Below, in pieces: positions 13,032 to 45,183 of a stretch of DNA of 64,000 nucleotides; within the stretch, counting starts at the first letter, position 1, and the number at the start of each line of letters is the position of its first letter. The translations under genes and the position numbers were made by a program. The notes under the pieces are model-generated. The model saw only the letters and a program-made list of their open reading frames with translations, did no database searches and had not been told where the DNA came from. This stretch comes from a virus: positions 32,618 to 96,617 of the IMG/VR virus record IMGVR_UViG_3300048854_000232; one strand, written 5' to 3'.

Positions 13032-13042
13032 CGGAGAGCCAC

Positions 13043-13891
13043 GTGACCGAGAAGAAACCCCCGGGTCAAGAGTTCGACCCTGCGGAAGACGGGGTCACCC
13101 ACATCAACTGTTACTCTGCCGGCAAGACGGAACTGGGCAAGCTGTTATCGAACTTCGCCCATGTACCGTTCACCCACCCTGAGCATGGTCATTTCGCGTC
13201 CATGGAGGGGTATTGGTATTGGTGCGGATCTGGTCGTAGTCACGATCACCTGCGTCGGTTGTACGGGATGTCGGCCAAGTCTGCCGGTGTCAAGTGTGAT
13301 CCGGTGCCGATTCCGGAAGAAGAGTTCCACGACATGATCCGCGAGGGCATGCGTTGTAAGATCGCTCAGAACCCACGATTGATGAATCTCTTCCGGCTGT
13401 CCAAGCTGCCCTTTGTTCACTACTTCGTCTATGGCGGAAAGGTGGTGCACAAAGACAAACACGATTGGCAGATGGAATGGCTCGAGCAGATCCGTCGAGA
13501 GTATCAACCGGACTACGTGGCTGAGCAGTTGGCCATGAACACTCAGTCGTTGGCGGAACGTAAAGAAGAAGCCAGGATTCTGGCCTCCTCGTTGCCGACG
13601 GATGAGCCGCGCCCTGGCGATGCCGGTGAACCGGTGCTGTGGATACGGTATCGCTTCCAGGCTAACTGGGATGATCCGCATCCCGACCGCGTACCGTCGC
13701 CTGGTCCCTGGTGGATCGTGCGCCAGGATCCGGACGAAGACTTCTCAGTAATCGATGCGTTCTTACCGCAAGGCGAGGACCTGCTTTCGTATTGGCCGGA
13801 AGCAGAAGAGATCGAGATCCAGGAGACGGTGGCCGAGTTACTGTACAGCGACGAACGTCCCCAGCCTTCCTGGTTCAAACCCAACGTTTAA
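13043..13891 (+). CDS. NADAR-like domain fused to a small Trp/Pro-rich C-terminal domain
   Basis: LSNFAH...FASMEGYWY and KIAQNPRL...LEQIR resemble NADAR (YbiA) motifs; GGAG RBS before GTG. Confidence 0.65.
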   Translation: MTEKKPPGQEFDPAEDGVTHINCYSAGKTELGKLLSNFAHVPFTHPEHGHFASMEGYWYWCGSGRSHDHLRRLYGMSAKSAGVKCDPVPIPEEEFHDMIREGMRCKIAQNPRLMNLFRLSKLPFVHYFVYGGKVVHKDKHDWQMEWLEQIRREYQPDYVAEQLAMNTQSLAERKEEARILASSLPTDEPRPGDAGEPVLWIRYRFQANWDDPHPDRVPSPGPWWIVRQDPDEDFSVIDAFLPQGEDLLSYWPEAEEIEIQETVAELLYSDERPQPSWFKPNV

Positions 13892-13918: not shown

Positions 13919-14653
13919 ATGACTACGCTGCGACCCTCAAGATTAACGGTGCGGATCATCAAGCGCACTCTAGGTGATCACTTTCTGGATTTCATGAACG
14001 CTAACAATCCGAAGGGCTTTTTGTCGGAGGAAGATCGTGAAATCGATGAGACAACCATTTCTGGGATTCTCATTATTACCGCTGTAGATCCAGAAGCGTC
14101 GTTGGAGACCTTGAAGGATCGAGCCCGGAAGATTTACGAGCTGTCCAAGAAAGAGGGAAAGCGACGCATCCCCATAACCCACAGCTACAACCACGTGGCC
14201 GAGGCATTTGGGTACCGGGGATGGGATCTGCTTAAGCTCGCAGCGTCGGAGGGTGCAGCGCCCAATCTTCGTCACAACAAACGATCGTTGGCGGAAGACA
14301 TCCATAGCGCCGAAGCCCGCATTTACTCATTGATCGGCATACCGGAAGGCGGTGAGTTGCCGGAAGGGTTCAGGGTACGCGGGTTCAGTGAAGACCAGGA
14401 CGCGGTGTACAAAGACTTTCGCCAAGTGGTCGATCAACTCGTGGCCGAGGGTTCCCCCATCGGGCAAGCGGAAGAAGCTTGGATCCTACACCAGCACAGC
14501 CACAGCCCTGCTCGGCGGGTGAGGTGGGTCAGTTATAAGGGCGTAGGTGTTTACGCCTCGATCAATCTCCTGGAAAGTTTGCGACTGCGCACGAAAAAGC
14601 TCAGGTGGCGCCTGAAAGCAAGATCGCACCTAAAGCCTACCCACCACGAGTAG
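13919..14653 (+). CDS. Hypothetical protein, atypical lower-GC codon usage
   Basis: 244 aa ORF; many A/T-ending codons compared with core genes. Confidence 0.7.
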   Translation: MTTLRPSRLTVRIIKRTLGDHFLDFMNANNPKGFLSEEDREIDETTISGILIITAVDPEASLETLKDRARKIYELSKKEGKRRIPITHSYNHVAEAFGYRGWDLLKLAASEGAAPNLRHNKRSLAEDIHSAEARIYSLIGIPEGGELPEGFRVRGFSEDQDAVYKDFRQVVDQLVAEGSPIGQAEEAWILHQHSHSPARRVRWVSYKGVGVYASINLLESLRLRTKKLRWRLKARSHLKPTHHE

Positions 14654-14742
14654 GTATAAGCGTAACCATTGTGTGACGTATCCCTCCGCCCTTGGCGGAC
14701 ACGTTAAGCCTTTACCTATGTCCGCCATTCGAGAAGAAGAAA

Positions 14743-15036
14743 ATGAACGCTGAAGCGAAAGAACCCAACGACCCGGTGGCCGAGGAACTGACCTTGGAAC
14801 CGCGTGAACCGGGCAAGACCACCGAAGAGGCCTTCGAGAAGAGTCTCGAGGCCTCGGCCGATACCGAGATCGTCAAGATGGCCTCCAGCCCGGGTAAGAC
14901 CGTGTTGTCGGATCAGCAGCTGCTGGGGATCCTGAAGATGGGTCCGTCCAATCCGGCCACCCGCAAGATCATCCGCGATATCAAGAAATCCATCAAGGAA
15001 ACACGTAAGGCTTCGCGGCCTTCCTGGAGGCGTTAA
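14743..15036 (+). CDS. Small protein ending in RKASRPSWRR
   Basis: ATG at 14743 in frame of ORF 14692-15036; TAATG overlap with the next gene. Confidence 0.75.
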   Translation: MNAEAKEPNDPVAEELTLEPREPGKTTEEAFEKSLEASADTEIVKMASSPGKTVLSDQQLLGILKMGPSNPATRKIIRDIKKSIKETRKASRPSWRR

Positions 15037-15989
15037 TGCATCCACTTCTCACGATCGAGGATAGGCTCCTGTGGGTCACGCTCACAGGACGGGAGTTGCT
15101 GGAAAACTACGGGGCGCATCTGGCCACCTACCGCACCGCGCGGTGTATGTTCGAGGTGGTGCTGGAAGCCTCCTACATGACCCGGCAGTTGGAGCTGGTT
15201 CGCGAGGGCACGATCGAGCAGGCTGAGCTTCAGATCCAAAGAAAAGAAGCGCAAGCGGAGTTCGAGGCGGCGTTGGACAACTATCGCCTTCGTCGCCGTT
15301 ACTACGTCATGTCGGCGATTCGTGAACGTAGGCAGGAATTTCGCAACCAGTGGTACCGGGATTTCTTTCCCCGGTCGCATGTGATTCGGGAAATGAAAGA
15401 ACTCCGCGATCACGCTCGGCGCATGTTCACGGGGCTGGAATCCAAACCCAAACGACGGGTCGTGCGGCCTCGTCCCCGGCAGGTGGGTGCGGCCCAAGCG
15501 CTCGCCCTGCAACGCCTGAAAGAGTATCGTTGGAGTAACGGTGAGGATAGCCTCTCAGGCTTTCCGCCCTATAACGGCGGGGTCCATCAGTCCACGCTTC
15601 CGCCGGCGCTTTCGGACGAGCTCGAGGAGCTGTTCCTCACGGCGGCCAAGGAACCGGATCGGACACTCAGCATGCATGTGAGTGTCTGGGAAGGCGTCAG
15701 TGAGATCCTCCCGCTGGCCATGCGCTACCACGCGTGGATCAACGATACCCTACCTCTGATCCCCCCGACTATCCTGTTGGTGGTGCAAGACCCGGCCTAC
15801 ACCGAGGTCCATGATCTGGATCGCCGGATCATCGAGCGCTTCTTCGCCGAGGAGCCTAAGGACACCCGGCGGGAGATCGGTTTCATCGCGCAAGAGGTAA
15901 GGAGCGTCGCCCCGGAGTTTGTGGACCATTGTCATTACGGCTACCCCCATCTCGGCATCAGGCGTGGCAACTCGCACAAAGCCGGTTAA
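15036..15989 (+). CDS. Hypothetical protein with C-terminal IGFIAQEV..PEFV motif (peptidase S74-like fragment)
   Basis: 317 aa, coupled to the upstream stop (TAATG), GGAGG RBS. Confidence 0.7.
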   Translation: MHPLLTIEDRLLWVTLTGRELLENYGAHLATYRTARCMFEVVLEASYMTRQLELVREGTIEQAELQIQRKEAQAEFEAALDNYRLRRRYYVMSAIRERRQEFRNQWYRDFFPRSHVIREMKELRDHARRMFTGLESKPKRRVVRPRPRQVGAAQALALQRLKEYRWSNGEDSLSGFPPYNGGVHQSTLPPALSDELEELFLTAAKEPDRTLSMHVSVWEGVSEILPLAMRYHAWINDTLPLIPPTILLVVQDPAYTEVHDLDRRIIERFFAEEPKDTRREIGFIAQEVRSVAPEFVDHCHYGYPHLGIRRGNSHKAG

Positions 15990-16004
15990 CCCAAGGAGAC
16001 ATTG

Positions 16005-16181
16005 ATGTCGCGCGTTGTTCGTTCACTTATTGGCCTGGCCCTGTCGACAGGTCTGACAGGTTTTCTGGCAGATCTGGGACGGAAGCACACTTACCCCGGT
16101 CAGCCCGAGGAACCTCGGTCTCAACCCAACCTTCGCGCTAAGCGCAAACGCAAAGCCGAACGTCCGGCGTGGAGAAAGTGA
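16005..16181 (+). CDS. 58-aa protein ending in RKAERPAWRK (not in the ORF track)
   Basis: AAGGAG at 15993-15998, ATG at 16005, TGA at 16179-16181 overlapping the next ATG; hydrophobic N-terminus MSRVVRSLIGLALSTGLTGFLA. Confidence 0.75.
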   Translation: MSRVVRSLIGLALSTGLTGFLADLGRKHTYPGQPEEPRSQPNLRAKRKRKAERPAWRK

Positions 16182-16513
16182 TGACGCTGGACGAATACGA
16201 GCGATTGCTGGAGCAGTTGGCCAAAGCGCTCGACGACCATCCGGGCAAGAGTCTGTGCATGCGGACCGATGCCTTTGCTCCGGGTGACCTGGCTGCCGCG
16301 AAAGCGATGACCAAGTCACGGGTGGGCGATCGCATCCAGTTCAACGACGAGGTCCTGATCACCGGCTTCGGCACCCGCGGTCTGGATCTGGAGAAGGTCG
16401 TCAAGGAGCTCAACGAGAAGCACATGAAGATGCCGCAGTTCTCGGCTGGGCCGGGAGATAACCGCGGTGACAAGCGTGAGCGGAAAGCTGCACGCCCTGC
16501 CTGGAGACAGTGA
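16181..16513 (+). CDS. Small protein ending in RKAARPAWRQ
   Basis: TGATG coupling at both ends; strong codon bias. Confidence 0.8.
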   Translation: MTLDEYERLLEQLAKALDDHPGKSLCMRTDAFAPGDLAAAKAMTKSRVGDRIQFNDEVLITGFGTRGLDLEKVVKELNEKHMKMPQFSAGPGDNRGDKRERKAARPAWRQ

Positions 16514-16722
16514 TGGGTGTCAAAGTCGAAATCAAAGATCCCTGGCACGTCACCCCGGAACAACGCGAGCTCATGCGGCAGCGCATGCTGAGTCGTGGAA
16601 TGCCGATGCGCCATGTCATGCGGTTGACGGACTATCAACTGTATAACCGGGCCGGTGGTCGCCACTACCCGTCCGAGCGGGACCAGCGCAAAGCCGCTCG
16701 CCCTGCCTGGCGGCGGATCTAA
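16513..16722 (+). CDS. Small basic protein ending in RKAARPAWRRI
   Basis: ATG overlaps the upstream TGA; GGAG RBS inside the upstream W-R codons. Confidence 0.75.
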   Translation: MGVKVEIKDPWHVTPEQRELMRQRMLSRGMPMRHVMRLTDYQLYNRAGGRHYPSERDQRKAARPAWRRI

Positions 16723-16731
16723 AGGAATCGC

Positions 16732-16992
16732 ATGAAGCAGAAAGTGATTTATCCGGTGGGTGCATCGCGTCCTGCAGAACTCCCGCCCGAGCCCACCTTC
16801 GGCATTGGTGTGCGACCTCCCTACGTCTGTGAGATACCCTATCCCCAACAACTGCCGCTGGATCTGTCTGAGCAAGACACTCGCGGCTTCGTAAACGCGG
16901 TCCGTGAGTTGGCGTTCCAGATGTATATGAACGAGTATGGAGATAGGCATGAAGTGTCCCATCGACGCCGAGGAAGCAGCTTTCCTCCGTGA
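16732..16992 (+). CDS. Hypothetical protein
   Basis: AAGGA RBS, 86 aa. Confidence 0.6.
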   Translation: MKQKVIYPVGASRPAELPPEPTFGIGVRPPYVCEIPYPQQLPLDLSEQDTRGFVNAVRELAFQMYMNEYGDRHEVSHRRRGSSFPP

Positions 16993-17079
16993 CGGTGTCC
17001 GGACGGTATTCGCATGGCAGCATGAATTCACACGCAGCCCCATCGCATCTCGCGGTGGGGGCGATTGTGGATACATGGT

Positions 17080-17316
17080 ATGCGTTACTCCCGGAGTCAC
17101 CGTCGACACCATCACGAACGCCTGAGGGCCAAGCGCCTGAAGGAGAGTTTTCGCTGGAGCATGAGTCCGACCATGGCATTGAAAAATGCCCAGTGGCGGG
17201 TTCACACAGCGTGTCTGTGCAGCTGTTCGATGTGCGGGAACCCCCGCCGTCATTACGGTAATGCCAAACAGGCCAAATCCTTTCAGGAATTGAAAACCCC
17301 GATCGAGTTTGAATAA
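17080..17316 (+). CDS. Small His/Arg-rich, Cys-cluster (putative Zn-binding) protein
   Basis: HRRHHHERLRAKR and HTACLCSCSMCGNPRRHYG; followed by a terminator. Confidence 0.7.
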   Translation: MRYSRSHRRHHHERLRAKRLKESFRWSMSPTMALKNAQWRVHTACLCSCSMCGNPRRHYGNAKQAKSFQELKTPIEFE

Positions 17317-17320
17317 CGTA

Positions 17321-17348
17321 AGAGTCCCCTCCCACAAGGAGGGGCTCT
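17321..17348 (+). terminator. Intrinsic terminator
   Basis: AGAGtCCCCTCC-cacaa-GGAGGGGCTCT followed by T run. Confidence 0.7.
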
Positions 17349-17376
17349 TTTGCCCCCTTAGCCAAGGAAACTCTAC

Positions 17377-17826
17377 ATGACCGATAGTAAGTACCCCGCT
17401 CGTTCCCTGGAAACGCTCCTCGACTACGACACGCCTTTCCGGGCAACTATGCGAATCTTCGAAGGGACTCGAGGCGATCAGGTCATCCTGGTCGTAGGGC
17501 GCTACACATTCCTCGAACACATCGAGTACCTCATGGGGTCCTCCAACGACATCGAGTGGGCCGAGGCTCGCTTTAACCTCCTCCCCGCGCCGTGGTTCCC
17601 GGCCGTGATCGAGAGCACGGTGGCCGAAGCGGTGGAAGCCTTGACGCTGAAGTTGTCCAAACTCACCGACGTCGAGTTCAACTCGTTGCCGTCGTTGTTC
17701 AGTATCTGCAAGCGCCTGGCCGAAGAGGACAAGGTGCCCAGCTACGACGAGGTGGGCGAGGATGAAGCACCGACGATGGCTGACTGGCTGAAGCAATACG
17801 CCGAATACGCCAACTACGACCTCTGA
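17377..17826 (+). CDS. Hypothetical acidic protein
   Basis: 149 aa, AAGGAAA RBS. Confidence 0.8.
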   Translation: MTDSKYPARSLETLLDYDTPFRATMRIFEGTRGDQVILVVGRYTFLEHIEYLMGSSNDIEWAEARFNLLPAPWFPAVIESTVAEAVEALTLKLSKLTDVEFNSLPSLFSICKRLAEEDKVPSYDEVGEDEAPTMADWLKQYAEYANYDL

Positions 17827-17831
17827 GTGTG

Positions 17832-17849
17832 GGGAGCCTTCGGGCTCCC
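17832..17849 (+). terminator. Intrinsic terminator with UUCG loop and long U-tract
   Basis: GGGAGCC-TTCG-GGCTCCC then actc and a run of 9 T. Confidence 0.85.
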
Positions 17850-17919
17850 TACTCTTTTTTTTTGGCTGGTCTGGACCCAACCGTATGAGGCAATCAACTT
17901 TTCTTAGAGGTCCTGGCTT

Positions 17920-19308
17920 ATGCCCACCGTAACCAGCATCACCAACCAGGCAACCAGTGCCGCACAGAGTGCTGCGACCAACACGATCAACAGCGCCCTT
18001 AGTAAGGTGTCCGCTGCGGGTAGCTTTGGCGCCTTGGGTGGCCTAAGCGGCTTTGGTAGCCTGAGCTCCCTGCTGAGCCAAACGGCTTCATCCACGGCGC
18101 TGGGCAAGCTCTCCTCCCCGGTCTTCGGTGGTGGTCCGTCCGATGCCGTGGCAGTGGTCGATGTCTATGGCATCTCCAACGGTAACGTCATCAACAACAC
18201 GGTCGATAAACTTTCGGGCTTTGACACCGGCTCGCTCGGTAACTTCCGTCAAAGCGGTGGCCTGCTGGGCAGTTTGTCCAGCCTGGGCAAGAGCGCCCTG
18301 GGCGGGCTCTCCTCGCTGGGTAGTGTGCTGGGTAACTCCCTGGGTGGGATCACCTCCGGCGTCTCCCTGACGGGCATGGCAGGCGGTCTGAACAGTGGTC
18401 TGGGTCTGGGCGCGTTGACTAGCGGCTTGCTTTCGGGCAATGGCGCCTCCAGCGTACTGCTGAACCTGGTCCCGTTGGCCACCAGCGTGGCGACCGGCAA
18501 TACCAACCTCTCCTCGATCTCCTCCCGCGTGTTGGGTTCGCTGGGTGGTCAAGGATCGGTGCTGGGATACTCCAGCGGTTTGCAGACTTCCCTCCTGGGC
18601 GGTATCGCGACTGCCGTGGGTGGCCAGTTCGGTATTCCTTCTTCCGTGTTCAGTATGGGCATCGCGCTCATCGGTGGACAGCGCACGACGTTCTATTCGG
18701 ACAACATCTCCGATGCCTCCGCCGTCGCAGGGTTGGCTAACAATATCTCCGGCGTGCCGGACACGGTGCAGATCATCGACGTGGGCGCTGAGTCCTCCAC
18801 GATGTCTACGGCAATCACGCAGATGATCACCTTGGGCCTGCCCACCGGTGTGAACGCATTGGTCACCGCAGCCAGCGATCCGATCGTAGCGAAGAACGCG
18901 CTGACGGCGAATATCCAGACCGCGGTCAATGCCTCGGACATGGCGACCATTGCGTTGCTGATCTCGAACCTGGGTGTGGGTACGATTCGTGCTCAGATGC
19001 CGGACTTCGCCGCCAAGCTCCTGGCCAGCTACAAGATCGCGAGCGGTAAGACGGTCAATGACTACAGCGCCTTGGCCACGGAACTGGTGGGCGTCCTCAA
19101 CACCGTGCAGGTCAACTGGGACTCGGCGACACGTAATGGGGAGATCGTCACCAACCTCTCTGCGTTCACCGGGATCAGTGCGGATGCGACCAAGATCCTC
19201 ACGACCATTCCGACGTACGCGTTGGCGGTGGCCTTGGCTCCGACCTACCGATCGGTGGATCTGTGGTCGACGGTAAAGAGCGAGTACCCGCTCATGGTAT
19301 CGATGTAA
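17920..19308 (+). CDS. Putative virion structural protein with Gly/Ser/Leu-rich N-terminal half
   Basis: 462 aa, GAGG RBS; converges on the tail genes. Confidence 0.7.
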   Translation: MPTVTSITNQATSAAQSAATNTINSALSKVSAAGSFGALGGLSGFGSLSSLLSQTASSTALGKLSSPVFGGGPSDAVAVVDVYGISNGNVINNTVDKLSGFDTGSLGNFRQSGGLLGSLSSLGKSALGGLSSLGSVLGNSLGGITSGVSLTGMAGGLNSGLGLGALTSGLLSGNGASSVLLNLVPLATSVATGNTNLSSISSRVLGSLGGQGSVLGYSSGLQTSLLGGIATAVGGQFGIPSSVFSMGIALIGGQRTTFYSDNISDASAVAGLANNISGVPDTVQIIDVGAESSTMSTAITQMITLGLPTGVNALVTAASDPIVAKNALTANIQTAVNASDMATIALLISNLGVGTIRAQMPDFAAKLLASYKIASGKTVNDYSALATELVGVLNTVQVNWDSATRNGEIVTNLSAFTGISADATKILTTIPTYALAVALAPTYRSVDLWSTVKSEYPLMVSM

Positions 19309-39543: not shown

Positions 39544-39603
39544 TTTATGCCGGTGCTTTTTTATCGAGGACCCACCTGCTATGACCTACAGGGGTATTTT
39601 TCG

Positions 39604-40959
39604 ATGGACACATTTGATCACCTTTACACGCAGTACATGGCGCTCTCCAAGGCGAACCCTGTGCTGGGGGCGGGCTTGGCGTTGTATGTCGCCGGTGCCG
39701 TGACCTTTTTCTTTCGCAGCACCCCGGCCAAGATTGGCCGGTTCCTCTACCGGCAGGCCACGACCACACTGACCTTGACCAACGCCGGGCAGGGTCTGGC
39801 CTCGGAGAACTTCGATGCGTTCTCCAAATGGTTCCTCCAACGCGATGGGGCCAGTTACATTCGCAACTTCCAGCTGGACGGCTCCTGGCATAAAGGCGGG
39901 GCTGTGTTGGGCGCAGGCAATGGCGCGGTCAATTTCTTCTGGTGGCGTAAGCGACTGTTTTGGATGACGCGTAAGCGCCTGGAGCAGAATCAGGGCAGCT
40001 ACCAGATCAACTACGAGGTGACGGTCACGATGCTGGGCCGGTCCTCGGCGATCATCCGGGACATGGTGGCCGACTTCCGCTATAAGCCCAGTGCTGAGGA
40101 GCTCTCGGTCTACGGTTTTGATGATGGCTGGGAACGGCGGGCTCGTGTGGGCTTGCGTAAGCTCAAGACCGTGATGGCCAGCACAGCACTCAAAGGTCAG
40201 TTGATGGAAGACATCGAGTTCTTCCGGGATAACGCCAGCTGGTATCTAGACCGGGGGCTGGCCCACAAGAAGACCTTCGTGCTCTACGGACCGCCGGGTA
40301 CGGGCAAGACCAGCTTGATCAAGGCCTTCGCGTCGTTCTATGGATTCAACGTCTGCATCATCAACCTGGGCCATGTGTCTGATCGTCAGTTGGAAAAGGC
40401 GATTGCGACGATGCCGGAGAATTCGATCCTGGTCTTTGAAGACTTCGATTCGACCTCGGCGACCAAGGTACGCCGCGCGGCCAAACCAAAAGTCGCTGAC
40501 GCACCGGCGCTACCGGTTGAACCGTTGGGCATGCTCTCCTCTACCGCGGCGCTCAGGGCCGCCACACCCGGACGCCTCGACGCGCCCGCCGCCGGTGGGG
40601 AGGAGACTTTCTTCTCCATGCTGACGCTCTCGGGTCTGCTGAACACCCTGGACGGACTGATCGGGCTGGACGGAAAGCTGGTCTTCATGACCACCAACCA
40701 TCTGGACAACATCGATTCGGCTGTGATCCGTGCGGGTCGAGTGGATCACATCTACGAGGTGGCTGAGCTTCACCAGCCTGAGATCGAAGATTACATCCGG
40801 CTGATGTTCCCGGAAACGCCAGTACCGGAAGGTCTGGCGTTTGAGAAGATCCTGGGCTGTAACTTGCAGGCCCTGTATTTCAAGCATCACCGGAGTGTGG
40901 ATGCGTTTATCGATGCGATCCCCAAGTGCCGGGAACTGCACCTGGTCGCTAGTAATTGA
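39604..40959 (+). CDS. BCS1-like AAA+ ATPase with N-terminal membrane anchor
   Basis: TM segment VLGAGLALYVAGAVTFFF; Walker A GPPGTGKT; Walker B ILVFED; LSGLLNTLDG and MTTNH...IRAGRVD. Confidence 0.85.
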   Translation: MDTFDHLYTQYMALSKANPVLGAGLALYVAGAVTFFFRSTPAKIGRFLYRQATTTLTLTNAGQGLASENFDAFSKWFLQRDGASYIRNFQLDGSWHKGGAVLGAGNGAVNFFWWRKRLFWMTRKRLEQNQGSYQINYEVTVTMLGRSSAIIRDMVADFRYKPSAEELSVYGFDDGWERRARVGLRKLKTVMASTALKGQLMEDIEFFRDNASWYLDRGLAHKKTFVLYGPPGTGKTSLIKAFASFYGFNVCIINLGHVSDRQLEKAIATMPENSILVFEDFDSTSATKVRRAAKPKVADAPALPVEPLGMLSSTAALRAATPGRLDAPAAGGEETFFSMLTLSGLLNTLDGLIGLDGKLVFMTTNHLDNIDSAVIRAGRVDHIYEVAELHQPEIEDYIRLMFPETPVPEGLAFEKILGCNLQALYFKHHRSVDAFIDAIPKCRELHLVASN

Positions 40960-44532: not shown

Positions 44533-45183
44533 ATGACGCTGATCGTGACACATAACGGCTACCTGGCCGTGGACTCCATTCGGTACGGCATCACACGGAA
44601 CGATGCCAATGGCGCTACCAAGCGTCGCCGGGTGCTGAGCAACAATGTCAACAAGTTGGTGATCCCAACCAACGAAGTACTGTTTCAGAATCAGCGCGTG
44701 CTCGCGATCGCTCGGTGCGGGACCTTGGGCCTGACCTCTCAGGTTGCCGAGGACATCCTCAACCAAGGGGATTTGGCGTTCTTGCATGCCAACCGCGTCG
44801 ATCGCTCCATCTATAAACCTCACTGGACCGGTAAGGTCGTGGTGTTGACCGACGTAAGTGCCTGGGAAGTCCGAGCGCGAGCGCAAGATCGGATGGACAT
44901 TCGCATCACCGATCTAAAAGACCAGCCCTATGCAACCGGCACGGGGTGCCAGATCGCCATCTACTTGATGAAGTGGATGAGCGTCAAACCCATCGACGCG
45001 TTGAATGCCTCGATGTTGGATCGCAGCGAAGAAGGCAATCGGGTCCGTTACGTCAATCGTAAAAAAGACGGCAGCCTGACCCAACCGCGGATCTACAAAC
45101 AGGATCCGGATCGCACCAAATTAAAAATGGCCCAGCATCTGCTGGAGCAAGTCCACGATAGCCGGTTTGTGAGAGGATCATGA
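44533..45183 (+). CDS. Proteasome-beta/HslV-like Ntn-hydrolase candidate
   Basis: N-terminal (M)TLIV....YLAVDS, downstream NK, AxxG and YATGTG..A motif. Confidence 0.55.
   Translation: MTLIVTHNGYLAVDSIRYGITRNDANGATKRRRVLSNNVNKLVIPTNEVLFQNQRVLAIARCGTLGLTSQVAEDILNQGDLAFLHANRVDRSIYKPHWTGKVVVLTDVSAWEVRARAQDRMDIRITDLKDQPYATGTGCQIAIYLMKWMSVKPIDALNASMLDRSEEGNRVRYVNRKKDGSLTQPRIYKQDPDRTKLKMAQHLLEQVHDSRFVRGS

What the first reader, a model, noticed from the sequence alone, without database searches (positions are those of the whole stretch)
14743..16722. Four unrelated small proteins share a C-terminal tag RKAxRP[AS]WR[RKQ]
Seen: ORF 14743-15036 ends KETRKASRPSWRR*, 16005-16181 (unannotated) ends KRKRKAERPAWRK*, 16181-16513 ends KRERKAARPAWRQ* and 16513-16722 ends RDQRKAARPAWRRI*. 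Their N-terminal parts are unrelated. Codons differ (CGT AAG GCT TCG CGG CCT TCC TGG; CGC AAA GCC GAA CGT CCG GCG TGG; CGG AAA GCT GCA CGC CCT GCC TGG; CGC AAA GCC GCT CGC CCT GCC TGG), pointing to selection on the peptide rather than a DNA repeat. In the first three, TGG-AG forms the GGAG Shine-Dalgarno of the next gene and the stop overlaps its ATG. That can explain W-R but not RKAxRP, and the fourth keeps WRR without GGAG. Inference: a modular short linear motif, such as a shared docking tag for one host or phage target, a phage-nucleus or membrane sorting signal, a degron, or a nascent-chain element controlling translational coupling. I do not recognise it as described.
Basis: partly seen in the sequence, partly recalled or inferred. 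Interest (0 to 1): 0.82.

Follow-up and report, generated by a model that had tools for sequence, protein, structure and literature searches.

The report
Shared tail on four phage proteins
Four neighbouring small genes of an uncultured soil jumbo phage encode otherwise unrelated proteins that all end in the same ten-residue basic peptide, which selection has kept at the protein level; it is most likely a common docking handle, but its partner is unknown and the tag was found in no other genome.

Summary
The motif [RK][KR]AxRPxW occurs exactly four times in the six-frame translation of the whole 294.6 kb phage genome. All four copies lie 10-11 residues before the stop of the four named + strand ORFs. 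The nine tag codons are near saturation at synonymous sites, and amino-acid changes occur only at the two x positions, so the peptide itself is under selection. The four protein bodies show no detectable similarity.

The genes sit in a roughly 4 kb accessory island that the nearest relative, Xanthomonas phage RTH11, lacks at this position. No homologue and no second tagged protein turned up in the whole genomes of RTH11 and LucasX, GenBank phages, IMG/VR, a JGI metagenome sample or 1.84 billion protein representatives.

My best reading is a private C-terminal docking handle. Its last codons also serve as the ribosome-binding site of the next gene. The function is untested.

One new lead: the tag core RP[AS]WR matches the conserved core RP[SAT]L[KR] of the SspB tail that docks on the ClpX protease. 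This phage also encodes its own SspB with a canonical ...HLRVVK tail. However, the tag has Trp where SspB has Leu and lacks the VVK end, so the match is only suggestive.

The scan has noted other shared terminal tags on phage proteins in other genomes, but not this one.

The parts
13919..17826 (+). Lineage-specific accessory island that holds the tagged genes
   Evidence: In Xanthomonas phage RTH11 the NADAR-like gene (matching window 13037-13507) is directly followed by the homologue of window 17920-19308. Nothing in RTH11 matches 13919-17826.
14743..15036 (+). ORF1, 97 aa: acidic N-terminal part, basic helix-like stretch, then the tag. Its stop TAA overlaps the ATG of the next gene.
   Evidence: GC3 0.76. 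No Pfam or PHROG family.
15004..15033 (+). Tag copy 1: RKASRPSWRR
15036..15989 (+). Untagged 317-aa gene between the tagged ones. Its C-terminal part resembles the Peptidase_S74 intramolecular chaperone. It also contains an internal tag-like stretch, KPKRRVVRPRPRQ-VG, at 15453-15497.
   Evidence: Pfam PF13884, 24.3 bits against a cut-off of 22. Atlas neighbours carry Peptidase_S74. The internal stretch was read; it is an untested lead.
16005..16181 (+). ORF2, 58 aa: one N-terminal hydrophobic segment (SLIGLALSTGLTGFLA), a Pro-rich linker and the tag. AAGGAG lies upstream of the ATG.
   Evidence: Present as a called protein, P0003.
16149..16178 (+). Tag copy 2: RKAERPAWRK
16181..16513 (+). ORF3, 110 aa: a body with predicted mixed helix and strand, a Gly/Pro-rich linker and the tag
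   Evidence: GC3 0.77. In the AlphaFold2 single-sequence model, residues 81-110 have no secondary structure, but the whole model is of low confidence. An identical contig from an RNA library covers 16174-16366.
16481..16510 (+). Tag copy 3: RKAARPAWRQ
16513..16722 (+). ORF4, 69 aa: small basic body, linker, then the tag followed by one extra Ile
   Evidence: GC3 0.71. The only hit in 5.8 billion proteins is itself.
16687..16719 (+). Tag copy 4: RKAARPAWRRI
17326..17344 (+). Terminator-like hairpin after the phrog_4499 gene (17065-17316); a possible end of the operon that holds the tagged genes
17829..17852 (+). Strong terminator-like hairpin followed by T8, closing the island after the acidic 149-aa gene

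Best explanation
The tag is a short linear peptide motif that works after translation as a common handle. Four different protein bodies are made from one translationally coupled operon in a lineage-specific accessory island. Each body carries, on a flexible basic linker, the same exposed tail RKAxRP[AS]WR. One shared cytoplasmic partner reads that tail. The partner is either an acidic protein pocket or a nucleic acid, and it is not identified.

The copies arose by old local duplication of gene ends within the island, and purifying selection has held them since. The last two tag codons (UGG AGR) also serve as the Shine-Dalgarno sequence of the next cistron in three of the four genes. This helps to explain why the tag sits at the very end.

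Shown: the peptide-level selection, the unrelated bodies, the terminal position and the confinement to this one genome. Inferred: that the tail binds anything, that all four bind the same thing, and what that thing is.
For: - The motif has four copies and only four in the whole genome, all at C-termini.
- Synonymous sites of the tag codons are near saturation (pS 0.55-0.88), while the seven defining residues never change. Each copy has therefore been kept separately by selection on the amino acids.
- The bodies are unrelated at the sequence level and differ in kind. ORF2 has one hydrophobic membrane-type segment and the other three have none.
- In ORF2-4 the tag follows Gly/Pro/charge-rich stretches. 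In the ORF3 model this region has no secondary structure, though the model is of low confidence.
- ORF4 carries the tag one residue further from the stop. The conserved unit is thus the peptide itself, not its exact distance to the end.
- There is no conserved RNA structure at the junctions. The untagged 317-aa gene is also closely followed by the next gene, so tight gene spacing here does not require the tag.
- The general principle, unrelated phage proteins docking on one partner through a shared C-terminal tail, is established for the T4 clamp and the T7 polymerase (my own knowledge) and for SspB on ClpX (PMC3983244; bioRxiv 10.1101/2022.11.06.515074).
Against: - No partner is identified and no binding has been shown.
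- There are no orthologues, so conservation across genomes cannot be checked.
- All four tags sit at tightly packed gene junctions. A docking role does not predict this; it has to be put down to the history of duplication.
- Because synonymous sites are saturated, the four genes could be very old paralogues whose bodies diverged beyond recognition. In that case the tail could be the family's functional core rather than a modular tag.
- Expression as protein is not shown. There are only two short identical contigs in one soil RNA library, and these could come from DNA.
Confidence: 0.45

Rival explanations
1. [quoted passage not shown] The proteins would then act in one of three ways. They could be phage-made adaptors, each body bringing a different target to ClpXP. 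They could be anti-adaptors that occupy the docking site. Or, for the membrane-anchored ORF2, the protein could be a sink that holds ClpX at the membrane.
For: - E. coli XB is RGGRPALRVVK-COOH and binds the ClpX N-domain (PMC3983244).
- Among 70 SspB homologues retrieved here, 51 end with RP-x-[hydrophobic]-[KR], followed by [VI][VI]K; 39 tails are distinct.
- The tag core RP[AS]WR matches RP[SAT]L[KR] at five consecutive positions. It also lies at a C-terminus after a flexible linker, as in SspB (bioRxiv 10.1101/2022.11.06.515074).
- ORF4's WRRI loosely fits the N-domain binding consensus LKxh (PMC7226468).
- The phage encodes its own SspB homologue (Pfam 98.3 bits) ending PRRAHLRVVK, and it has no ClpX or ClpP of its own. 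It therefore plausibly engages host ClpXP.
- A phage-encoded adaptor-like protein for a Clp protease is known: SPO1 Gp53 with ClpCP (PMC6873191).
Against: - None of the 70 natural tails has Trp at the Leu position, and all full-length ones keep the [VIL][VI]K end, which ORF1-3 lack.
- In a scoring matrix built from the natural tails, the tag core reaches only 5.1 bits. About 0.15% of all five-residue windows of this phage's ORFs do as well, which is roughly 1.5% per protein tail.
- The residues most conserved in the tag (R-K-A upstream) are not conserved in XB tails.
- The phage's own SspB uses the canonical tail, so the host's ClpX is expected to read LRVVK.
Confidence: 0.13
2. The tail is an arginine-rich nucleic-acid-binding arm. 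The basic residues contact phosphates and the single Trp stacks on a base. This would anchor the four bodies on RNA (for example ribosomal RNA or a phage transcript) or on DNA. This is a special case of the docking reading in which the partner is a nucleic acid.
For: - Composition: the last 16 residues of each protein carry a strong net positive charge, with one aromatic residue and one Pro.
- Arginine-rich motifs in which a Trp stacks on RNA are known, for example the lambda N peptide on boxB (my own knowledge).
- The only weak PDB match of the tag profile is a basic extension of a ribosomal protein, at E 9.7, which is not significant.
Against: - Invariant Ala and Pro and the strict order of residues suggest a shaped pocket rather than general charge binding.
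- No cognate RNA hairpin or DNA repeat was seen around the genes.
- The AT-hook core G-R-P is absent; the residue before R-P is S, E or A.
- There is no direct evidence.
Confidence: 0.15
3. The four genes are very old tandem paralogues of one small gene family. The tail is simply the family's conserved functional core, and the bodies have diverged beyond recognition. On this reading it is not a modular tag added to unrelated proteins.
For: - The genes are adjacent, co-directional and in one island.
- The tag and its junction have the same layout in three genes.
- The ORF3 and ORF4 tag DNA copies are the most alike, at 88%.
- Synonymous saturation leaves enough time for the bodies to diverge completely.
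- The 317-aa gene holds a decayed tag-like stretch followed by V-G, where the ORF3/ORF4 junction has M-G. This hints at repeated units.
Against: - The bodies differ in length (58-110 aa), in charge and in kind: one has a membrane segment and three do not.
- No pair of bodies scores above shuffles.
- This reading concerns origin. It does not say what the tail does, and it is compatible with a docking role.
Confidence: 0.15
4. The peptide acts in cis while still inside the ribosome. As the last ten residues of the nascent chain, it would slow termination and so tune re-initiation on the overlapping start codon of the next gene.
For: - Every tag lies directly before a closely spaced or overlapping start.
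- Selection is on the amino acids.
- Nascent peptides that block termination are known, such as TnaC and SpeFL (my own knowledge).
Against: - ORF4 shifts the tag by one residue relative to the stop and is not overlapped by the next start.
- The untagged 317-aa gene is also closely followed by its neighbour, with a 15-base gap and AAGGAG.
- The other overlapping junctions listed in the genome scan carry no such peptide (a crude ORF filter).
- I know of no precedent for peptide-driven termination-reinitiation coupling in bacteria.
Confidence: 0.07
5. The tail is a degron that gives the four proteins a short, timed life through a host or phage AAA+ protease.
For: - It is terminal and exposed.
- The phage deals with ClpXP through its own SspB and encodes a BCS1-like AAA ATPase.
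- Basic C-terminal ClpX signals of the MuA type exist (my own knowledge).
Against: Well-known C-terminal degrons (ssrA-type LAA, and the Tsp and FtsH signals) end in non-polar residues. Three of the four tags end in R, K or Q. No protease link has been shown.
Confidence: 0.08

Closest known systems
SspB XB tail (ClpX N-domain tethering peptide; E. coli RGGRPALRVVK-COOH)
   Same: It is a C-terminal peptide of about ten residues, on a disordered linker behind a separate binding body. The core R-P-small-hydrophobic-basic is shared (PMC3983244). The same phage encodes a true SspB with this tail.
   Different: The tag has Trp where XB has Leu (0 of 70 natural tails have Trp). It has no [VI][VI]K end (ORF4 has only R-I). 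It has a conserved R-K-A upstream that XB tails lack. The match score is only modest. Binding has not been tested.
Shared C-terminal docking tails of phage replication and transcription proteins: T4 gp43, gp33 and gp55 on the gp45 clamp; T7 gp2.5 and gp4 acidic tails on gp5 (my own knowledge)
   Same: Unrelated phage proteins end in one short peptide that a single partner reads.
   Different: Those tails are hydrophobic or acidic, sit on well-known core proteins, and are conserved across phage families. This tag is basic, sits on orphan accessory proteins, and is private to one genome.
Encapsulin cargo-loading peptides (my own knowledge)
   Same: A short C-terminal tag on unrelated cargo proteins that sorts them to one compartment built from a phage-type fold.
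   Different: The sequence is different (Gly/Ser/Leu-rich). There is no evidence here that the tagged proteins are packaged.
Arginine-rich RNA-binding motifs such as the lambda N peptide (my own knowledge)
   Same: A short, highly basic peptide with one functionally important Trp.
   Different: Those motifs are N-terminal and helical. This one is C-terminal and has a central Pro, and no cognate RNA element was seen.
SPO1 Gp53, a phage-encoded adaptor-like protein for ClpCP (PMC6873191)
   Same: A precedent for a small phage host-takeover protein that plugs into a host Clp protease.
   Different: It is a single protein of a Bacillus phage. No shared tag is involved, and it has no sequence relation to these ORFs.

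Membership tests
SspB-type XB tail (ClpX N-domain tether) | Lies at the extreme C-terminus behind a disordered linker | tested here: met
   All four tags end 1-2 residues before the stop. The linkers are Gly/Pro/charge-rich. ORF3 residues 81-110 have no secondary structure in a low-confidence model.
SspB-type XB tail (ClpX N-domain tether) | Core R-P-[SAT]-L-[KR] | tested here: inconclusive
   R, P, the small residue and the basic residue match. Leu is replaced by Trp, which occurs in 0 of 70 natural tails. The matrix score of 5.1 bits is reached by 0.15% of proteome windows.
SspB-type XB tail (ClpX N-domain tether) | Terminal [VIL]-[VI]-K, of which the second hydrophobic residue is the 'h' of the N-domain consensus LKxh (PMC7226468) | tested here: not met
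   ORF1-3 end W-R-[RKQ]. ORF4 ends W-R-R-I, a partial fit.
SspB-type XB tail (ClpX N-domain tether) | Binds the ClpX N-domain and competes with SspB | not testable with these tools
The host is unknown.
AT-hook | Invariant G-R-P core flanked by basic residues | tested here: not met
   The residue before R-P is S, E, A or A.
C-terminal degrons of the ssrA type | Non-polar last residues (such as LAA-COOH) | tested here: not met
   The tags end in R, K, Q or RI. The definition comes from my own knowledge.
One paralogous protein family | Detectable similarity outside the tag | tested here: not met
   BLASTP matches only the tag. Body-against-body z scores lie between -0.6 and 0.3. Structural similarity could not be judged because the model confidence was too low.
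Termination-arrest nascent peptides | Fixed distance of the key residues from the stop codon | tested here: inconclusive
   Trp is at -3 in three copies and at -4 in ORF4. Stalling itself cannot be tested here.
DNA or RNA repeat element | Conservation independent of the codon phase, or a conserved fold | tested here: not met
   Variation is confined to third positions. The four DNA copies are 69-88% alike. The consensus fold is only -3.5 kcal/mol.
Phage-nucleus import signal (Chimalliviridae) | A linear peptide sufficient for import | not testable with these tools
   The import papers I consulted describe factors and interfaces, not a linear signal. The tag is absent from the nearest relatives.

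The most novel reading that the evidence does not exclude
The phage has built its own set of protease adaptors. Four different binding bodies, one of them membrane-anchored, each carry a shortened Trp-containing version of the SspB tail and dock on the host ClpX N-domain. Chosen host proteins (for example defence proteins) would then be handed to ClpXP, or the docking site would be blocked. The phage's own SspB homologue would work alongside them.
Probability: 0.13. Interest if true: 0.75.

Novelty: new variant of a known kind. Interest (0 to 1): 0.45.

Why it matters
Shared terminal tails are one of the few features that can group orphan phage proteins by what they plug into. If this tail has one reader, four proteins of unknown function in a jumbo phage gain a common handle that can be used directly for pull-downs.

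That has been done by design in the laboratory but, to my knowledge, has not been described in nature.

The limits are clear. This is one uncultured soil phage with four small genes, no relatives and no experiment.

Tried and rejected
Homologue searches that found nothing:
- tblastn of ORF3 and of the 317-aa gene against GenBank phages, and megablast of the region.
- ORF4 against 5.8 billion proteins found only itself.
- ORF3, the 317-aa gene and the conserved 462-aa neighbour in IMG/VR.
- The language-model atlas for ORF3.
- PDB sequence searches for ORF1, ORF3, ORF4 and the tag profile gave only insignificant or composition-driven hits.
- Pfam and PHROGs for all four tagged ORFs.

Tag searches elsewhere:
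- A profile of the four tails against 1.84 billion representatives returned only this phage's own ORF2-4.
- A strict DNA pattern in IMG/VR gave 13 hits, all in non-coding-looking frames.
- A peptide pattern in JGI metagenomes gave 599 raw matches, none confirmed.
- A DNA pattern in metagenomes gave 120 sampled hits. About 14% lay near a stop, as chance gives, and none were clustered.
- A loose pattern in four relatives was near control level.
- Whole-genome six-frame searches of RTH11 and LucasX found no tag. A quick look for other shared tails there found only one ordinary-looking paralogue family.

Complex prediction: the phage SspB substrate-binding domain (residues 1-120) with the ORF3 tail gave no answer, with a score of 0.00 and the controls not run. 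This is no evidence either way.

Structure: the AlphaFold2 single-sequence model of ORF3 had mean pLDDT 47.9, too poor for a fold search.

RNA structure at the junctions: none is conserved.

Sequencing runs: the source soil run holds the stretch. A second soil DNA study and a soil RNA library hold only short identical pieces. No variants were seen, so there is no information on conservation and only a weak hint of transcription.

Host identification through the phage SspB in reference genomes found nothing close. Relatives cannot be drawn for a virus record.

Considered and set aside: AT-hook (no G-R-P), non-polar degrons, a recent DNA repeat or gene conversion (synonymous sites are saturated), and an open frame on the opposite strand (16138-17880, which has no coding-type GC3).
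Full report
WHAT IS THERE. The window lies at bases 32618-96617 of a single-contig virus record of 294,599 bases, 59.4% G+C. Its large RNA-polymerase beta-type gene is 51% identical to those of Xanthomonas phages RTH11 and LucasX, and more distantly related to many phiKZ-like jumbo phages. The genome is therefore an uncultured phiKZ-like jumbo phage. The DNA is held in full by one soil metagenome run. I did not verify that it encodes the nuclear-shell protein, so 'Chimalliviridae' remains a reasonable assumption and not a result.

THE OBSERVATION. In the six-frame translation of the window and of the whole genome, [RK][KR]AxRPxW occurs four times, and these are the four named copies. All are on the + strand within 2 kb, and each lies 10-11 residues before a stop. 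Looser versions (RP[AS]W[RK], AxRPxW, RPxW[RK][RKQ]) add only hits in short or non-coding-looking frames. A search for any other shared C-terminal ending among this genome's ORFs found nothing comparable.

SELECTION ON THE PEPTIDE. Take the seven codons whose residue never changes. Second positions never vary. One first position varies, and that change is synonymous (AGR/CGG). Six of seven third positions vary. Pairwise, 55-88% of synonymous sites differ, and non-synonymous differences occur only at the two x positions. ORF3 and ORF4 differ at five synonymous and no non-synonymous sites. As DNA the four copies are only 69-88% alike. The four junctions share no meaningful RNA fold: the consensus energy is -3.5 kcal/mol. 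The copies are therefore old, and each has been kept by selection on the amino acids. A recent repeat, gene conversion or an RNA element can be set aside.

THE BODIES. BLASTP finds only the tag. Smith-Waterman scores of the bodies against 300 shuffles give z between -0.6 and 0.3 for all six pairs. ORF2 consists of one hydrophobic segment, a Pro-rich linker and the tag. By the positive-inside rule its very basic tail should face the cytoplasm (inference). ORF1 has an acidic N-terminal part. ORF3 has a mixed helix/strand body in a low-confidence model whose last 30 residues have no secondary structure. ORF4 is a small basic protein. None matches Pfam, PHROGs or PDB sequences. GC3 is 0.71-0.77 for ORF1, ORF3 and ORF4, typical of real genes in this genome, and 0.53 for the short ORF2. 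ORF2 has a good AAGGAG upstream and was called as a protein in the public collection.

CONTEXT. In RTH11 the NADAR-like gene is directly followed by the homologue of window 17920-19308. Here about 4 kb (13919-17826) lie between them, and nothing in this stretch matches the syntenic RTH11 region. The tagged genes thus sit in a lineage-specific accessory island.

The island's gene order is: a 244-aa gene; ORF1 (tagged); a 317-aa gene with a Peptidase_S74-like C-terminal piece; ORF2, ORF3 and ORF4 (all tagged); an 86-aa ORF; an 83-aa gene of phrog_4499; a terminator-like hairpin; an acidic 149-aa gene; and a strong terminator.

Three tags supply GGAG for the next gene through TGG-AGR, and their stops overlap the next ATG. 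The fourth does not. The untagged 317-aa gene is also followed closely by the next gene, so tight spacing does not require the tag.

IS THE TAG ANYWHERE ELSE? No, as far as these tools can see:
- ORF3, ORF4 and the 317-aa gene have no homologues in GenBank phages, IMG/VR or 5.8 billion proteins.
- A profile of the four tails against 1.84 billion representative proteins returned only this phage's own ORF2, ORF3 and ORF4 at E up to 0.001.
- A strict back-translated pattern gave 13 hits in IMG/VR and 120 sampled hits in metagenomes. These lie near a stop no more often than chance predicts, sit in junk-looking frames, and never occur twice on a contig.
- Of 599 raw peptide-pattern matches in JGI metagenomes, none was confirmed.
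- The whole genomes of RTH11 and LucasX have no copy.
- No close relative of the phage was found in IMG/VR. Two other soil runs hold only identical fragments.

The tag is private to this phage.

WHAT IT MOST LIKELY DOES. Several features are the anatomy of a short linear motif that acts on the finished protein. The peptide is selected at the amino-acid level. It is exposed at the end of a flexible basic linker. It sits on four unrelated bodies, one of them membrane-anchored. Its position relative to the stop can shift by one residue. I take it to be a common docking handle for one cytoplasmic partner, with confidence 0.45. Its position at gene ends is partly explained by its second job as a ribosome-binding site, and by an origin through duplication of gene ends within the island.

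The 317-aa gene contains KPKRRVVRPRPRQ followed by V-G, where the ORF3/ORF4 junction reads RPAWRQ-stop/M-G. This may be a decayed fifth copy left by a gene fusion. It is a lead, not a result.

Its chemistry (net charge about +5, one Trp, one Pro) fits either an acidic protein pocket or a nucleic acid. I cannot tell which.

A CONCRETE LEAD. I recalled that the SspB adaptor docks on the ClpX N-domain through its last residues, then checked this. The E. coli peptide is RGGRPALRVVK-COOH (PMC3983244). SspB is a folded domain followed by a disordered region that ends in this short segment (bioRxiv 10.1101/2022.11.06.515074).

A search of the phage's own genome for the SspB family gave a clear hit outside the window: Pfam 98.3 bits over the full profile, at genome bases 212090-212554. 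The protein ends PRRAHLRVVK. The phage has no ClpX zinc-binding domain and no ClpP. RTH11 and LucasX have weaker SspB-like genes with different tails. SspB homologues in nucleus-forming phages are already known, for example RAY gp039 (bioRxiv 10.1101/2023.02.24.529968).

Seventy SspB homologues retrieved with the phage protein end almost uniformly in [GK]-R-P-[SAT]-L-[KR]-[VI]-[VI]-K. The tag core R-P-[AS]-W-R matches five consecutive positions of this. ORF4's W-R-R-I loosely fits the N-domain consensus LKxh (PMC7226468).

Against this reading:
- Trp never replaces Leu in the natural tails.
- The VVK end is missing from ORF1-3.
- The tag's conserved R-K-A has no counterpart in XB tails.
- In a matrix built from the natural tails, the tag core scores only 5.1 bits, a value reached by 0.15% of all windows in this phage's ORFs.

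I rate the ClpX-tether reading at about 0.13. It is the most novel reading the evidence leaves open, and it can be tested directly with peptides.

OTHER RIVALS.
- Very old paralogy with a conserved family core cannot be excluded, because synonymous sites are saturated (0.15). It concerns origin more than function.
- A cis-acting nascent peptide that tunes termination and re-initiation fits the position at junctions. It is weakened by the one-residue shift in ORF4, by the untagged but closely spaced 317-aa gene, and by the lack of precedent (0.07).
- A degron is possible, but known C-terminal degrons end in non-polar residues (0.08).
- A phage-nucleus import signal has no support. The import papers I consulted describe factors and interfaces rather than a linear signal, and the nearest relatives lack the tag.

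WHAT FAILED. The one complex prediction, the phage SspB domain with the ORF3 tail, gave no answer and counts neither way.

EARLIER NOTES OF THE SCAN. Other windows have yielded shared terminal tags on unrelated phage proteins, with other sequences. They have also yielded notes on phage SspB homologues and proposed ClpX-tail mimics. None concerns this tag. I used these notes only as context.

VERDICT. This is a real, cleanly selected, private C-terminal tag on four orphan proteins of one uncultured soil jumbo phage. It is a new variant of a known kind, namely shared docking tails. Its function is unproven, and there is one testable candidate reader. Interest 0.45.

Noticed in passing
L049:1465-1929 (+), which is genome G000:C1:212090-212554, outside the window: The phage encodes an SspB homologue of 154 aa (Pfam PF04386, 98.3 bits; phrog_8945). 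It ends in the canonical ClpX-docking tail ...PRRAHLRVVK. The genome has no ClpX zinc-binding domain and no ClpP.
   Followed up: yes
L050:1318-1974 (RTH11) and L051:1366-2016 (LucasX): The two nearest relatives have weaker SspB-like genes (54 and 43 bits). Their tails, ...DFRAPRKPKS and ...DFRARRKPSS, differ from the LRVVK type. This hints that this phage's host is not a Xanthomonas.
   Followed up: partly
window 15453-15497 (inside the 317-aa gene 15036-15989): The internal stretch KPKRRVVRPRPRQ followed by V-G resembles the tag plus the ORF3/ORF4 junction (RPAWRQ-stop/M-G). It may be a decayed fifth copy left by a gene fusion.
   Followed up: no
window 15036-15989: The last ~70 residues of the 317-aa protein resemble the Peptidase_S74 intramolecular chaperone of tail fibres and spikes (GFIAQEV...P..V; Pfam 24.3 bits). 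The rest of the protein is orphan.
   Followed up: partly
window 17065-17316: An 83-aa basic ORF with a TTG start matches phrog_4499 (E 4.9e-14, function unknown). It contains C-x-C-x-C-S-M-C-G-N-P-R-R and is followed by a terminator-like hairpin at 17326-17344.
   Followed up: partly
window 13043-13891: The NADAR-like gene carries a C-terminal extension of about 120 aa that its RTH11 homologue lacks. The extension ends ...ERPQPSWFKPNV, a faint echo of RP-x-W. This is probably chance.
   Followed up: no
window 39547-40959 and 44533-45183: The 470-aa gene is a BCS1-like AAA ATPase (Pfam AAA 60 bits, BCS1_N 32 bits). The 216-aa ORF that another first-stage note proposed as HslV-like has no Pfam match at E up to 0.01.
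   Followed up: partly
window 15651-15838 and 16174-16366: Two short contigs from a soil metatranscriptome library are identical to the 317-aa gene and to the start of ORF3. A second soil DNA study also holds identical fragments of the island. This is a weak hint of transcription and shows that the phage recurs in soil.
   Followed up: partly
RTH11 record OQ790161.1, about 304.5-307.2 kb (loci L186-L187): Four neighbouring ORFs of 106-190 aa end in related tails: ...LDGEF[NT]I[EF]FE[LD] and ...DHFD[GE][ST]F[EN][VI]KF[ED]D. This is probably an ordinary paralogue family.
   Followed up: no
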